Shown here piece after piece: positions 1,175 through 59,801 of a stretch of DNA of 64,000 nt. Each line of letters opens with the position of its first letter. Position 1 is the first letter of the stretch. The notes beneath the pieces were generated by a model that saw only the letters and a program-made list of their open reading frames with translations, had not been told where the DNA came from and ran no database searches. The translations under genes and the position numbers were made by a program. Origin of the DNA: Haliotis rufescens (taxonomy: Eukaryota); contig NW_025963868.1 of assembly GCF_023055435.1 (NCBI RefSeq), forward strand, positions 22,754,001 to 22,818,000. Direction: 5' to 3'.

Positions 1175-1294
1175 CTATGCCCAGTCTCCTGTACGGCGCC
1201 AGACAGCCCAGAGTCATAATGTAAAGTCTTCTCTGGTTCTCGGACGTGTCGATCCTACAGCATACTGCTCCTATAACTATGTCATTGTAGTAGG
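1175..1294 (-). CDS. NAA50: NAA50 coding exon 3
   Basis: tttcag|AYYNDIVIGAVCCRIDTSENQRRLYIMTLGCLAPYRRLGIG|gtaagt; includes the GNAT acetyl-CoA motif RRLGIG. Confidence 0.96.
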
Positions 1295-2310
1295 CTGAAA
1301 CACAGAGTGAGTGAGTGAGTTGTTATTAACAGTATTATGGAACTACAGCACACTGCTCCTATAACTATGTCATTGTAGTAGGCTGAAACACAGAGTGAGT
1401 GAGTGAGTTGTTATTAACAGTATTATGGAACTACAGCACACTGCTCCTATAACTATGTCATTGTAGTAGGCTGAAACACAGAGTGAGTGAGTGAGTTGTT
1501 ATTAACAGTATTATGGAACTACAGCACACTGCTCCTATAACTATGTCATTGTAGTAGGCTGAAACACAGAGTGAGTGAGTGAGTTGTTATTAACAGTATT
1601 ATGGAACTACAGCACACTGCTCCTATAACTATGTCATTGTAGTAGGCTGAAACACAGAGTGAGTGAGTGAGTTGTTATTAACAGTATTATGGAACTACAG
1701 CACACTGCTCCTATAACTATGTCATTGTAGTAGGCTGAAACACAGAGTGAGTGAGTGAGTTGTTATTAACAGTATTATGGAACTACAGCACACTGCTCCT
1801 ATAACTATGTCATTGTAGTAGGCTGAAACACAGAGTGAGTGAGTGAGTTGTTATTAACAGTATTATGGAACTACAGCACACTGCTCCTATAACTATGTCA
1901 TTGTAGTAGGCTGAAACACAGAGTGAGTGAGTGAGTTGTTATTAACAGTATTATGGAACTACAGCACACTGCTCCTATAACTATGTCATTGTAGTAGGCT
2001 GGAACACAGAGTGAGTGAGTGAGTTGTTATTAACAGTATTATGGAACTACAGCACACTGCTCCTATAACTATGTCATTGTAGTAGGCTGAAACACAGAGT
2101 GAGTGAGTGAGTTGTTATTAACAGTATTATGGAACTACAGCACACTGCTCCTATAACTATGTCATTGTAGTAGGCTGGAACACAGAGTGAGTGAGTGAGT
2201 TGTTATTAACAGTATTATGGAACTACAGCACACTGCTCCTATAACTATGTCATTGTAGTAGGCTGGAACACAGAGTGAGTGAGTGAGTTGTTATTAACAG
2301 TATTTTGGAA
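1255..2310. repeat. Tandem array, 88 bp x 12, overlapping the NAA50 exon 3 acceptor
   Basis: Unit CTACAGCACACTGCTCC...GAGTGAGTGAGTTGTTATTAACAGTATTATGGAA; near-identical copies. Confidence 0.97.
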
Positions 2311-5042
2311 CAGTTTTCAATTATATCACGGTGTGTCAGCTTAATGTGGGAGGAAAGCCATGAGCACAAATCTGTACTGAAATACTCAAATTCATCATGT
2401 AATTACACTGTCTGGTTGTAGAACGAGTTCATAATATATCTGCACTTATGTTGGTAATCTATATTATTAATTGTATTCAACAATTCATTCAATATTGTCA
2501 CCGTTATTTACAGCAACCACGCTCATATTATCGCTTTTGATGCTAGAGAATGGATATATATATCATAAATGCCATACATTTAATCGCTGAAAGTCATACT
2601 TGTTGTAGTTTGACAATTATATGTCAACATTAAGTTTTCGCAATCGTTGGCGCATGGACGGTGATTGGTCTAATTCTTCCATTCGAAAACATTTCAGCTG
2701 AACCAAAGTGCTACGCTTATGGTTATTAATTTATTTCACATGTATAAAGTAAATATGCAACTACACATGATATTGGAATAAATTATTCCTGATAAAATAA
2801 TAGTTTCAGATGCAATTCTTCCGCTCATTGTATTAAAATTCTTTAAAGTTATATTATTGGCCGAATCACTGATAGATTCCGAGAAACGTTTGTACAGCTG
2901 AATGCTACTTCCGGCTTAGTTTACGAGACAAGACACACGGTAATGTTAATCTCTGCATATAAAACAATGCCAATCAGAACAGGAAACAATTTAGTCGGCT
3001 AATCATTATGTTTAGTGATGTTTTATCTCAAATTTCAAATTTGTATTGACCAAGTTTATTTGATATAATCTGTTCAGTTTCCCTGAATTCGCTGAAGGGC
3101 TACGATGTAACTTTGCGGAAGACACACACATTTTTATTGCAAATGTAGAGATTTTGTATGCACTAGTGATGTGCTTTATTCTGATTCGCCAGAGTATATA
3201 AATTAGTATTGATTTCCCGCTTATTTTACGAGACAAATAACCTCTGCGTATGAAACATTGTCCCTCATACAGTACACAAATAACATTGACTTTGTATTTG
3301 AATACCATCATCATGTCTAGTGATGTTGTATCGCAAACTGAATGTTTTTATTGACCAAATTTGCAAACAGCAAAGCAAGCACACAAACTCCCATTGCCGC
3401 CATGACTATAACACACGAGATGCGCAGTAAAGCAGTGCGCATGAGAAGGGAAGTAACTGCATGTTATATTGGATCGCATTGTTTTTAAGTATTGCAGCAT
3501 TTCACAGTTTAGGTCGTGTGGTCGCGACGCGAAACATTTAAGGATATTATTTTTTGGAAAATGGAAATAAAAACGAAACGTGCGGCGGACTTTACGATGA
3601 TGTGGTGGTGCCTGACAACCAAGAATTCTTTTTTAGCCTTATAAATCTGTTTTTGAACAAATCAATGGCTATATTCACATAAGCATGATAAGTATATGCT
3701 TTGAATGAATTCAGCCTGTCTGTTACCATCACGGTTTCCCCTTGTCTATCTTTAGTGCAAGCAAATCACATTTCGCTTTGCTTCGAGGTTAACTATCTAT
3801 TTGTAGCAAACAACGAAAAAAGAGAAAAATGTGACTGAATTTTATGTAAATGACATGCAAATTTAACAAAGTTACCTGAGAGATGACGTCATTGTATGGA
3901 ACATAATGTAAAAAGAATTAAAACCAGGTAATTTTCATACTTTTTTTTATTTGCTAAAAGTTGAGACAGACAAAATTTAGGGGTGAACTGGTAGTTTCAA
4001 AAGTCAACGGAAACACTGGCAACTCTGCACAGTGAATTGCAATGCCTTAGACGACTGGGCGACCCGAACAGTGAGTGACGACACACTTACTGACCTATAC
4101 ACCTGCAGACTTTTGGTATATCTAAACAAGTATTTATCTAGGATATAACAAACTTAAATGAAGTAACAAATGATCAACAAAAAATGAATTAATTATTTTA
4201 CCATGAATCATGATGAATTCAGAATATACCAGATTCTGATTGGTCTAGCAGAGGTTTCAAATCACAATAACCAGCAGTGTTTAAAACAACTGATTTGATG
4301 ACTGTATTGCTGTGGGAGAATATGTTTCAAGAAAGGTACTCTTCCAATCACTGTTGGTTTGCATTTTGAAATATCATGTTATTTTCAACGTACAAAATGA
4401 AGGTCCTCCAATATTCAAAGTATGTTTGGCTATACATCTTGAGCAGAAAACAAAACACAAATTGACCTAGAGTATATTTCAAGTTTTAGGGAGATCTTGA
4501 ATTTTTTTCAAGCCTACTAAGACGTGTTCCAATCAGCTGAGTGAGTCACATCACAGGTGAGCAGCTTAGAACTAAACACTGCCAGGATTGATTAACCATG
4601 TACTTCAAAACAAATCCAACTCTTGAAAAACTTATATTTCTCCATTTGCTTCTACTTCTACCATGTTCTACAATTTGTTCAAAATATGAGATGAGTCGAG
4701 ACTGAACACTAATATTCATCAGTCCTTGGTATCGAAAGAAACAAAAGACTGGACTATGCGAAGACTGTTTCTGAAGGAGTGATCAAATGAGTGAGTATGG
4801 TTTTACGCTGCTTTGAGCAATATTCCAGCAATATCACAGCAGGGGGACACCAGAAGTGGGCTTCACACATTGTACCCATGTGGGCATTCTACGTGGCATT
4901 ACTACCCACTTGAAGCCTTCTATAACTGGACATATCATTTTGGACCATTTTTGGCCACCAACTGTTGGGTTAGGCTTGCTGCATAACCAACATAGACAAG
5001 CCATGACCAAATCTGACCATGCAAGAAAACAAAGGCTTTTAC

Positions 5043-5179
5043 CAAGTTTTGCAAGTTCTCCCACTTCTAGGACGTCCTTGTAGAACTTGTCATTGTAGGT
5101 GACTGGGAACACCACCTGGTTCAATCGCTTGAGCTGCTTGATGTTGTGCGGGGTTATGTCCCCTAGTTCTATGCGACCT
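5043..5179 (-). CDS. NAA50: NAA50 coding exon 2
   Basis: ttgcag|..GRIELGDITPHNIKQLKRLNQVVFPVTYNDKFYKDVLEVGELAKL|gtaaaa. Confidence 0.96.
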
Positions 5180-5217
5180 CTGCAACAAATACATGCATGG
5201 GTTAATATCGTTTTTAT

Positions 5218-5813
5218 AATTTATAAGCCCCCTAAAAATTTAAAGTTGGCGGGTTAGTGTTTGTCAACGCCTAGATTACAATATTAATGTCTCGGTTGTA
5301 TAAAGCCAATCGCTCTCCTTCCAAGATTCATCGTCCCGAGGCAAGAGAGTTAACTGACTTTAAAAGTCCAGTTTCCACCCTTGCCGAACTAGGCTGGAAT
5401 TACCGGGTTGATCGTAGCGCCACCAGTGGCTATTACCAGTTATGTCCTGTCTAAGCATCGCCTATGGACCAATCAGATTCCACCTCTCGTATCACTTGCG
5501 TTTGCTTCACACAAAATTTATAAGCCCCCTAAAAATTTAAAGTTGGCGGGTTAGTGTTTGTCAACGCCTAGATTACAATATTAATGTCTCGGTTGTATAA
5601 AGCCAATCGCTCTCCTTCCAAGATTCATCGTCCCGAGGCAAGAGAGTTAACTGACTTTAAAAGTCCAGTTTCCACCCTTGCCGAACTAGGCTGGAATTAC
5701 CGGGTTGATCGTAGCGCCACCAGTGGCTATTACCAGTTATGTCCTGTCTAAGCATCGCCTATGGACCAATCAGATTCCACCTCTCGTATCACTTGCGTTT
5801 GCTTCACACAAAA
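5218..5813. repeat. Direct tandem duplication, 297 bp x 2
   Basis: Two apparently identical blocks, including the left end of a MITE. Confidence 0.92.
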
Positions 5814-6169
5814 TGGTGGCGCCCGGTCAGGACGATCTGATAGATAATCAAGATACATATTGTGATAAAACGTGTCTTACATCGCGAAATGCATTAAATC
5901 ACGTGAGCATCTTGATTAAAAACATGAAAAGATTTGGAAAATATCTGCTGACAACGAGTTGACGGTGCACATGCTTTGCAAATCCTACAATTGACCGAAA
6001 TCTGCACGACAGTTAACAAACCGGATTTCTATTTCGGTGCGCATTTTTGATTGGACTATGCATAGACTCGTTAGTCCAGCCAAAATATAACTCCATAACA
6101 CCAGCCTAGTTCGGCAAGGGTGGAAATTGGACTTTTATTGTCAGTTAACTCTATTGCCCCGGGAAGATG
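5626..6169. mobile_element. MITE family 1 (~70-bp TIRs, CATC...GATG ends); relatives at 36233-36738, 48545-48734 and 61058-61131
   Basis: Inverted GTTAACTGACTTTAAAAGTCCAGTTTCCAC arms; imperfect 9-bp TSD. Confidence 0.85.
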
Positions 6170-9480: not shown

Positions 9481-10744
9481 TGCTTGTACTAGTCCAGAAT
9501 ATGCCAGTTTTCTAGTTCTAGCCCACTGAGACACCATACCCCACTCAGACGCAGTGCTAAACTTGGCCGAGGCGACCAGTCAACGTCTCTCCTAATACAG
9601 CATGAGAGCCATGCAGGCAGGGTAATAATAAATACGTCTTTCGGCATGATTTGTTTGTTTGTTGTTTTACACAGCACTCGGCAATATTCCAAGCCGCGGC
9701 CGGGGATCGAACCACTAACCTTCCGTCCTCGAGGCAGATGCTCTAACCACGAGTCACGGAGCCAGTCCTCTGTGAACGGAGTATACGGTATATATATCAT
9801 TGATTAAAATAATCCCCACGCGCTTGAGGTTTCACACCTTGAATTTAGTCTTTTTGTCATTTTACCAAACAATCTGAAATGACCTCCTTCATCTGTTCGC
9901 CTCATCTTTACACAAGAACCACAGTTAAAGGGAGCAGTTCAATTCATTGTCGGGTGAAAAAAAGGTCCCTTAAGTTTGCAAACACACCACCATTTTCATC
10001 CTGTGATAGATGCTGTTCGTTTTCATAGAACATTTATGACGATAAAAGGTTTGTTTATTTATTTTATTACTTGAACTGTAAACCCTTGACAGCTTGATTT
10101 TGTCGATGGAAAACGTGCAGACCTGTGGAATTATATGTGTTTAACGTCGAGTTCAAGATTATTGCACTTACATAGCCCACCTAGATACCATGCTTCAGTT
10201 TAACACGGATACCACACCTAGACACAGTATACTGACTCCAAGCCAACAAGGCTTTGTTTTAGCCCCTTAATGCCGAGCACCAGGCAGGGTAACAACAAAC
10301 ACCATCTTTTAACGTCTATGACGAGATATGTGTTTTGGAAGTAAACCTAACTACGTTTGCTTCATGTTTGTTTAATGTTTGCTAACGAGGCATATGTTGT
10401 ACATACTTGGCTGTCATACAATATTTCAGTGTATACAGTGACATGATATGTTTAAGAGCTATTATCGGAAATTTAAAACGACAACCTACTCAAAACACTG
10501 AACTCGACACATGCAGCATCACTCATTATATTCCCTAAAGAGTTCGCGTTCTGTTCCAAATTCGATTTAGTCACTTCGAATCTGCAGGTAACCTAGTTCT
10601 ACACCGAATAAACCCCAGTATGTATCTTAAGTGAATACCACGGGAAACATTGTTATTCTAAGTTAAAAGAGCGTATCAACGTCAAACAGAATACCGTATG
10701 TGCTATTGACACATGTAATATGTTGTACGGCATATATAATATGT

Positions 10745-58542: not shown

Positions 58543-59088
58543 GGGCCTGGTCGTTTTTAAGATGCCACTCGTTTGCCGAGATGTGTCACTTGGACATGCT
58601 AGAGGGCCCGGCCGTTTTTCAGATGCCACTCGTTTGCCGAGATGTGTCACTTGGACATGCTAGAGGGCCCGGTCGTTTTTCAGATGCCACTCGTTTGCCG
58701 AGATGTGTCACTTGGACATGCTAGAGGGCCCGGTCGTTTTTCAGATGCCACTCGTTTGCCGAGATGTGTCACTTGGACATGCTAGAGGGCCCGGTCGTTT
58801 TTCAGATGCCACTCGTTTGCCGAGATGTGTCACTTGGACATGCTAGAGGGCCCGGTCGTTTTTCAGATGCCACTCGTTTGCCGAGATGTGTCACTTGGAC
58901 ATGCTAGAGGGCCCGGTCGTTTTTCAGATGCCACTCGTTTGCCGAGATGTGTCACTTGGACATGCTAGAGGGCCCGGTCGTTTTTCAGATGCCACTCGTT
59001 TGCCGAGATGTGTCACTTGGACATGCTAGAGGGCCCGGTCGTTTTTAAGATGCCACTCGTTTGCCGAGATGTCACTTGGACATGCTAG
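58543..59088. repeat. Tandem array, 61 bp x 9, in RPS25 intron 3
   Basis: Unit GGGCCCGGTCGTTTTTCAGATGCCACTCGTTTGCCGAGATGTGTCACTTGGACATGCTAGA. Confidence 0.96.
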
Positions 59089-59801
59089 AAGCATAAGCAT
59101 GGGTTTGAATCGCAGTTCACCCTGAATGTGTCTTGGTTTTCCTACCCCTGAAGTGCCAGGTTAGAATAGGTCTTCAGCAACCGATGCTTACCGTAATAGG
59201 CGATCAAGATCAGATGGGCAGGCTCACTGACAATTAATGCTTTAAATAAACAAAACAGGATTAAACACATTCTTTGATTACCTCAATCTCATTAAAATCT
59301 GATACAATTTCTCGCTTATGCCAAGGACACCCCATTACATGTAGGACACGTCAGAACAACTATGACCACCCAATGAAATGGCTAACAGGAAGTCGACATT
59401 AGCCACTTAGAAAGCAGCTTTCTTGATCTTTGCTGTACCAGTTTCAAACTGGTGACTTCCATTCCAGACTACTTTTTAAAGTATTTTTAATCGGTCATAC
59501 AGTCCATAACAGTATTGTGTTAAGCTTTATAGGTTGCATGATTAGAAAACATTCCGCTGACAATGTAACAACAGTTTAAATATTTCAGTTTTTGTACTAC
59601 GTATTTGTATTGTTTTCTATCGTTGTCTATCGTGTAGTTGTCCGATTTTCGATCACAAATGTTATTACTAAATTTTGTTTGTGACATACTCCTCAATCCG
59701 ACATAATCATATGCAACCATGGTAACTGAAATATTGTTCAAAACTGTAAATCTGTTTACTATTGTGTACTAGCGTCTAAACAGCTGTGTTTTTCCTTTCA
59801 G

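What the first reader, a model, noticed from the sequence alone, without database searches (positions are those of the whole stretch)
1255..2310. NAA50 exon 3 acceptor amplified 12-fold; only the last copy is productive
Seen: each 88-bp unit contains the intronic (ACTC)n tract, TGTGTT(T/C)CAG and the first 40 nt of exon 3. The spliceosome therefore meets 11 near-identical acceptors before the true one. Because 88 is not a multiple of 3, any upstream acceptor reads AYYNDIVIGAVCCSSIILLITTHSLTLCFSLLQ-stop. The decoys differ from the real exon by one synonymous base (GTG vs GTA). Inference: this is either a natural test of exon definition, or a copy-number-dependent NMD dial on a conserved housekeeping gene.
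Basis: partly seen in the sequence, partly recalled or inferred. Interest (0 to 1): 0.7.

Follow-up and report, generated by a model that had tools for sequence, protein, structure and literature searches.

The report
Splice-acceptor "mirage" minisatellite in NAA50
An 88-base piece spanning the end of an intron and the start of the next exon of an animal's NAA50 gene is repeated 12 times; a related species has only one copy and similar repeats sit at about one in twenty other exons checked in this genome, so it is likely a tolerated repeat of a kind already known from lancelets rather than a gene-dosage switch.

Summary
The array is real. It is 88 bp x 12 on the NAA50 intron 2/exon 3 boundary (minus strand). 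All 11 upstream acceptors would give a stop 33 codons on. The head-to-tail junction is in 2 of 2 DNA runs of this species and absent from 1 run of a related species, which has one copy. Array variants differ between runs, and depth hints at about 3 copies there. The GTG/GTA 'decoy marker' is private to the assembled haplotype. The unit's intronic half is the 3' tail of an older SINE-like repeat. Such arrays are common here: 5 of 90 conserved exons sampled carry one, about 2 expected by chance. The kind is published as lancelet 'mirages', and this scan has noted it at 7 other loci of this genome. Best reading: a neutral VNTR, likely spliced at the last copy by exon definition. One loose end: an RNA run holds a junction contig 13-34 times deeper than unique intron, so some leak is not excluded. 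Contigs cannot say which acceptor is used. No evidence for a dosage dial.

The parts
1255..2310 (-). 88-bp x 12 tandem array; each unit = 48 nt of intron 2 end + first 40 nt of NAA50 exon 3
   Evidence: junction in DNA runs X1, X5 and RNA run X13, absent in X14
1175..1294 (-). True NAA50 exon 3, 120 nt, the only copy followed by the rest of the exon and a strong donor (TAG|GTAAGT)
   Evidence: X13 contig 1284-1174 runs on into exon 4
1295..1342 (-). Intronic half of the innermost unit: SINE-like 3' tail with four yUnAy branch-point-like motifs per unit, then TGTGTTTCAG
   Evidence: branch-point use is inferred
1343..2262 (-). Eleven upstream acceptor copies (exon start at 1382, 1470 ... 2262); each would give a 208-1088 nt exon with a premature stop
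   Evidence: translation only; use not shown
2263..2390 (-). Decayed, sense-oriented SINE-like repeat whose (ACTC)n tail abuts the acceptor; older than the array
   Evidence: nhmmer E 2e-12 to other copies; high-copy piece 2321-2359; same flank in species B without array; 5' limit approximate
5043..5179 (-). NAA50 exon 2, 137 nt, donor TTG|GTAAAA
222..288 (-). NAA50 exon 4, 67 nt
   Evidence: loose end of X13 contig reads exon 4

Best explanation
This is a young, variable tandem repeat that copied the NAA50 intron 2/exon 3 boundary, and the cell likely splices almost only at the last copy, so the repeat is likely tolerated rather than regulatory. Shown: a SINE-like repeat ends at this acceptor in two species, but only this species carries the head-to-tail 88-bp junction. 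Inferred order: repeat insertion first, then one 88-bp duplication with 1-nt microhomology, then expansion and homogenisation by slippage or unequal exchange. Inferred mechanism: both flanking introns are long (3748 and 886 nt), so sites are paired across the exon. The last acceptor lies 120 nt from the only strong donor, while upstream copies have no donor in their unit and would make exons of 208-1088 nt. Any slip upstream is predicted to give a premature stop and be removed by NMD.
For: Junction in X1 and X5 (118-nt cycle contigs = 88+30; joint 1351->1264 going back 88 in X1), one unbranched contig 1100-1343 at even depth 12.1 in species B. Array variants differ between runs: G at 1298 in X1 and X13, A in X5 and 9 of 12 window units. 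No donor-like site in the unit above 4 of 9 matches and no AG|GT. A spliced exon 3-exon 4 contig of 910 nt is present in an animal or pool that carries the array (X13). Arrays over splice sites at 5 of 90 sampled exons (2 acceptors, 3 donors; 5 of 180 boundaries, 2.15 expected, P=0.07). Same architecture reported as harmless in lancelet BflGb6, Adh3, TnC (PMC3087553, PMC3902484 passages). Cross-exon proximity rule (PMC9225289 abstract).
Against: No call shows exon 2 joined to 1294: all 12 copies share the first 40 nt, longer than the contigs' word size. RNA run X13 has a 107-nt junction contig at depth 28.9, against 49.5 for the shared 41-nt piece, 45.3 for exon 2, about 0.9-2.3 for unique intron 2 and 0 for intron 3. 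Unspliced RNA or DNA explains that only if that sample carries about 14-35 copies, more than the roughly 3 suggested for X1 and X5. The tool warns that contig depth is no measure of RNA level. PMC9225289 section 9 says the upstream 3' site preference is reduced, not reversed, between long introns.
Confidence: 0.7

Rival explanations
1. Leaky but unregulated: a noticeable minority of transcripts splice to upstream copies and are lost to NMD, a small cost with no selected role.
For: Junction contig in RNA run X13 at 13-34 times the unique-intron depth, with no contig for intron 3 or for the outer flank of the array. All copies have identical branch-like motifs, pyrimidine tract and AG. Upstream 3' sites keep some preference even between long introns (PMC9225289 section 9).
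Against: One run only, contigs only, genotype unknown; a large allele times pre-mRNA or DNA background gives the same picture. The depths do not balance cleanly across the graph (28.9 + 45.3 exceeds 49.5). No decoy-derived protein was found (weak).
Confidence: 0.19
2. Copy-number NMD dial: array length sets the share of unproductive splicing and so tunes NAA50 dose between animals.
For: Every upstream acceptor is unproductive; the array varies between samples; X13 RNA holds the junction.
Against: Absent from the related species. The same architecture arises at about 3% of sampled boundaries, near chance, and any unit length not divisible by 3 is unproductive by default. The nearest decoy is present at any copy number of 2 or more, so extra, more distant copies should add little under exon definition (inference). 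No expression or genotype data.
Confidence: 0.08
3. Assembly artefact: the array, or most of its 12 copies, was produced by the assembler.
For: Cycle-to-flank depth ratios of 2.3-3.7 (X1) and 2.3-2.4 (X5) fit about 3 copies, not 12 (11.7 expected).
Against: The junction is in three independent runs from three studies, so the array itself exists. The 12 units carry an ordered pattern of variants. Different animals may simply carry shorter alleles.
Confidence: 0.03

Closest known systems
Lancelet 'mirages', above all globin BflGb6 (also Adh3, troponin C, PGBD5); PMC3087553 and PMC3902484, passages read
   Same: Minisatellite-like tandem copies of an intron 3' end plus the 5' part of the next exon; the authentic copy is terminal; copy number differs between haplotypes (6 and 3 in BflGb6); end units differ from homogenised inner ones.
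   Different: Different phylum and gene; 88-bp unit against 150-160 bp in BflGb6 and 10-72 bp in Adh3; units 98-100% alike against 81-100%; intronic half comes from a SINE-like tail; normal splicing was checked by RT-PCR there, not here.
Human F7 IVS7 37-bp VNTR (PMC1557585, abstract only)
   Same: A VNTR whose end unit spans an exon-intron boundary and leaves identical, normally silent pseudo-sites; used as a natural model of splice-site choice.
   Different: Donor, not acceptor; silence was shown with minigenes and explained by oriented scanning.
Unproductive splicing coupled to NMD (poison exons and alternative acceptors; general knowledge, recalled)
   Same: Use of an upstream acceptor would add a premature stop more than 50 nt before downstream junctions.
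   Different: Such switches are typically conserved and regulated; this array is missing in a related species and no regulated use is shown.

Membership tests
Mirage (splice-site-spanning minisatellite) | Tandem unit spans an exon-intron boundary | tested here: met
   48 nt intron + 40 nt exon, 12 copies
Mirage (splice-site-spanning minisatellite) | Copies keep the splice signal and the authentic site is the terminal copy | tested here: met
   12 of 12 keep CAG; only 1294 continues into the NAA50 frame and donor
Mirage (splice-site-spanning minisatellite) | Length or sequence instability between haplotypes | tested here: met
   Majority base at 1298 differs between runs; depth ratios about 2.3-3.7 against 12 assembled; one copy in species B. 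Copy numbers are rough.
Mirage (splice-site-spanning minisatellite) | Concerted evolution of inner units, end units distinct | tested here: met
   8 of 12 units identical; private bases in unit 1 (1263) and unit 12 (2305)
Mirage (splice-site-spanning minisatellite) | Normal splicing is not disturbed | tested here: inconclusive
   Spliced exon 3-4 contig present, but a junction contig is in the same RNA run; contigs cannot resolve the acceptor
Mirage (splice-site-spanning minisatellite) | Somatic instability (reported for Adh3) | not testable with these tools
   needs single-molecule typing of tissues
Regulated unproductive splicing (AS-NMD switch) | Alternative form carries a stop well upstream of the last junction | tested here: met
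   11 of 11, stop 107-987 nt before the end of exon 3, two more junctions downstream
Regulated unproductive splicing (AS-NMD switch) | Alternative site is used in mRNA | tested here: inconclusive
   X13 junction contig could be pre-mRNA, DNA or mis-spliced mRNA; no such protein found (weak)
Regulated unproductive splicing (AS-NMD switch) | Conserved in related species | tested here: not met
   One copy only in species B, 1 run laid
Regulated unproductive splicing (AS-NMD switch) | Level responds to a signal or to copy number | not testable with these tools
   no raw mRNA reads or matched genotypes were offered

The most novel reading that the evidence does not exclude
This mirage is not silent: a sizeable share of NAA50 transcripts splice to upstream copies and are destroyed, in step with allele length, so a VNTR built from a SINE tail and an exon start works as a heritable dose dial on a NatE subunit. 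With arrays at about 3% of splice sites, such dials could be a genome-wide source of expression variation in this animal.
Probability: 0.1. Interest if true: 0.6.

Novelty: new member of a known kind. Interest (0 to 1): 0.22.

Why it matters
As a single locus it matters little: it is one more mirage in a genome where they are common. It is a clean natural test of acceptor choice (identical acceptors at 88-nt steps, alleles of different length), and the only one of this scan's listed cases where I can point to a hint of array sequence in RNA above intron background. More widely, about 1 in 20 conserved exons here carries such an array. My four searches found this in print only for lancelets and humans, not for molluscs, so a genome-wide count would be new, and it matters for annotation and read mapping.

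Tried and rejected
No RNA holder with raw mRNA reads was listed (contigs, plus 3 miRNA runs that I did not lay). I laid 5 of the 24 listed runs (X1, X5, X9, X13, X14). (window 2175-5215, 85% likeness) was swamped by interspersed repeats: the exon 2 joint was not among the rows shown, and X9 gave no exon 2 cover, which says nothing. X1 has no cover at 1150-1259 (a hole, no finding). Using GTG/GTA to tell decoy from real exon was rejected, since the real exon is GTG in X13 and X14. Recursive splicing or seamless intron gain was rejected: no AG|GT in the unit. In-unit mini-exons were rejected as weak: best donor 4 of 9. RNA structure hiding the copies was rejected: 1175-1518 folds worse than 100 of 100 shuffles, z=+2.4. 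A protein search with the decoy frame found nothing at E<=10 among 5 candidates (weak). A profile of the tRNA-headed SINE family did not match the acceptor flank beyond the ACTC tail (2.3 bits, within shuffles); the match is to a second family, whose head I did not characterise. Exon 1 was not found. The 61-bp x 9 array at 58543 looked like a second acceptor mirage, but no exon evidently follows it. The original mirage paper (Canestro 2002) was not held; I know it only as cited in PMC3087553.

Full report
Observation. TRF finds an array at 1255-2311 with period 88, 12.0 copies and 99% matches. On the minus strand each unit is 48 intronic bases ending (ACTC)n-TGTGTT(T/C)CAG plus the first 40 nt of a coding exon. 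The gene is NAA50: the peptides of 5044-5178 and 1176-1292 match human NAA50 chains in the PDB at E about 1e-23 and 3e-19. Exon 2 has one match in G000. Exons are 5179-5043 (137 nt), 1294-1175 (120 nt), 288-222 (67 nt) and a last coding exon starting 266 bases before the window, in L011; exon 1 was not found. Eight of 12 units are identical. Unit 1 has a private base at 1263, units 9, 11 and 12 have TTCCAG, and unit 12 has a further private base at 2305. All 11 upstream acceptors give 33 residues and a stop, 107-987 nt before the end of exon 3. The organism is called an abalone in the scan's earlier notes; no call of mine names it.

Is it real, and how old? I laid contigs of 5 of 24 listed runs. 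In one search, DNA runs X1 and X5 (same species, two studies) each give a 118-nt contig, which is the 88-base cycle plus 30, and X1 shows a joint going back 88. The array therefore exists outside the assembly. DNA run X14, a related species, gives one unbranched contig from 1100 to 1343 at even depth 12.1 that leaves into the flank, with no junction: one copy. X14 has GTG and TTCCAG, the states of the outermost unit. The cycle has G at 1298 in X1 and X13 and A in X5, so array make-up differs between animals. Cycle-to-flank depth is 2.3-3.7 in X1 and 2.3-2.4 in X5; 3 copies predict 2.7 and 12 predict 11.7. This is rough, but it points to shorter alleles. The spliced contig of X13 has GTG in the real exon, and the place where X5's cycle opens (1255) implies the same, so the GTG/GTA difference is private to the assembled haplotype.

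What the unit is made of. The flank at 2321-2359 is a very high-copy element. A search with 2263-2400 over 84 kb finds other copies at E down to 2e-12, aligned through the (ACTC)n tail. The intronic half of the unit is thus the 3' end of a sense-oriented SINE-like repeat, and species B has the same flank closer to the family sequence. The order is inferred: insertion, then duplication, then expansion. The tail gives CTCAC motifs of branch-point type in every unit (four yUnAy matches); their use is not shown. PMC4758252 (passages) describes Haliotis SINEs ending in short tandem repeats; I did not assign this family to a named one.

How it likely works. Intron 2 is 3748 nt to the real acceptor and intron 3 is 886 nt, so exon definition is expected (inference). 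The real exon ends in TAG|GTAAGT (8 of 9 consensus matches). The 8 GT sites in a unit reach at most 4 of 9, and there is no AG|GT. The last acceptor is therefore the one nearest the only good donor; upstream copies would need exons of 208-1088 nt. PMC9225289 (abstract) states that sites closest across the exon are preferred between long introns. Its section 9 is weaker for acceptors: the upstream preference is reduced, not reversed. RNA folding offers no hiding mechanism (z=+2.4). Slips are predicted NMD targets; NMD was not tested.

What RNA shows. X13 holds a 910-nt contig from 1284 through 1174 into exon 4, so it contains spliced NAA50 RNA, and it comes from array carriers. It also holds a 107-nt contig across the head-to-tail junction at depth 28.9. 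The shared 41-nt piece is at 49.5 and exon 2 at 45.3; four clean intron 2 bins average 0.86 (pieces at 2.1-2.3), and intron 3 has none. Background explains this only with about 14-35 copies in that sample; otherwise some transcripts run through upstream copies. The genotype is unknown, the depths do not balance across the graph, it is one run, and the tool warns that contig depth is no RNA level. Contigs also cannot show which copy exon 2 joins, since all share 40 nt. I count this as a hint against strict silence, not as evidence of a dial. A protein search with the decoy frame found nothing (weak).

How common. I took Pfam exon matches for CCT/HSP60, kinesin and myosin in G000 and kept the 90 that lay in fetched loci: 37 of 52, 39 of 124 and 14 of 122. 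I dropped intronless hits, duplicate contigs and most of a tandem myosin cluster. In 184 kb, 44 arrays (period 20 or more, 2.5 or more copies) cover 9.7% of bases. Five exons carry an array across a splice site, judged by eye. Acceptors: C446:1162273 (29 bp x 34) and C556:3501730 (34-43 bp units, only 1-3 exonic bases). Donors: C201:5436602 (83 x 15), C556:60047477 (45 x 8.5) and C113:17004029 (83 x 5). That is 5 of 180 boundaries (95% interval about 1-6%) against 2.15 expected from random founding units (P=0.07). The NAA50 array is thus an ordinary product of a minisatellite-rich genome. The scan's earlier notes list 7 more such arrays in this genome; I did not check those loci.

Comparison. 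[quoted passage not shown] PMC3902484 (passages) adds PGBD5, Adh and troponin C. PMC1557585 (abstract) is the human F7 donor-side case. The array meets four mirage features, one is inconclusive (silence) and one untestable. It fails conservation as a regulated NMD switch. Searches (listings only) found no mollusc or NAA50 report. I looked at no supplements.

Verdict. Observation confirmed; new member of a known kind. Silent, tolerated VNTR 0.70; leaky but unregulated 0.19; dose dial 0.08; artefact 0.03. Interest 0.22.

Noticed in passing
L011 about 9734-9840 (163-266 bases before the window), minus strand: The same SINE-like family also ends directly upstream of the NAA50 last-exon acceptor (E 1e-11), so 2 of the 3 acceptors located after exon 1 other than exon 2's, namely exons 3 and 5 but not 4, sit right behind its (ACTC)n tail.
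   Followed up: partly
G000 loci L015-L097 (184 kb around 90 conserved exons): The tail of this family lies within -40..+35 of a called acceptor in 3 of 18 sense copies (0.65 expected, P=0.03), with a fourth at 48; the tRNA-headed family 0 of 24. Modest evidence that these tails collect at, and may supply, branch points.
   Followed up: partly
G000 loci L015-L097: Strong strand bias of both (ACTC)n-tailed families in introns: 20 of 22 and 26 of 30 copies are sense to the host gene (P about 1e-4 each). The antisense tail reads GTGAGT, a donor consensus, so antisense copies are likely purged (inference).
   Followed up: partly
L046, L063, L069, L053, L091: Five further splice-site-spanning arrays in kinesin and myosin genes: 83 bp x 15 and 45 bp x 8.5 and 83 bp x 5 at donors, 29 bp x 34 and 34-43 bp units at acceptors.
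   Followed up: partly
window 5218-5814: Two 100% identical 297-bp copies 38 bases upstream of the exon 2 acceptor, with an inverted partial copy near 6103-6160. Earlier notes describe a 297-base Penelope-linked repeat in this genome, but a look-up by sequence found no link.
   Followed up: partly
window 58543-59089: 61-bp x 9 array with TTTTTCAG in each unit, starting right behind a decayed copy of the same SINE-like family; no exon evidently follows.
   Followed up: partly
window 26624, 27432, 19577 (+ strand): SINE tails followed within about 30 nt by a pyrimidine tract, AG and coding-looking sequence; possible further acceptors behind SINE tails.
   Followed up: no
window 3875 and 4094 (- strand, intron 2): Two strong donor-like sites (8 of 9 and 7 of 9 matches) upstream of the array; they could in principle pair with array acceptors.
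   Followed up: no
window 1298: The real acceptor reads TTTCAG like most inner units, while the related species and the outermost unit read TTCCAG; array turnover may have overwritten the functional acceptor (inference).
   Followed up: partly
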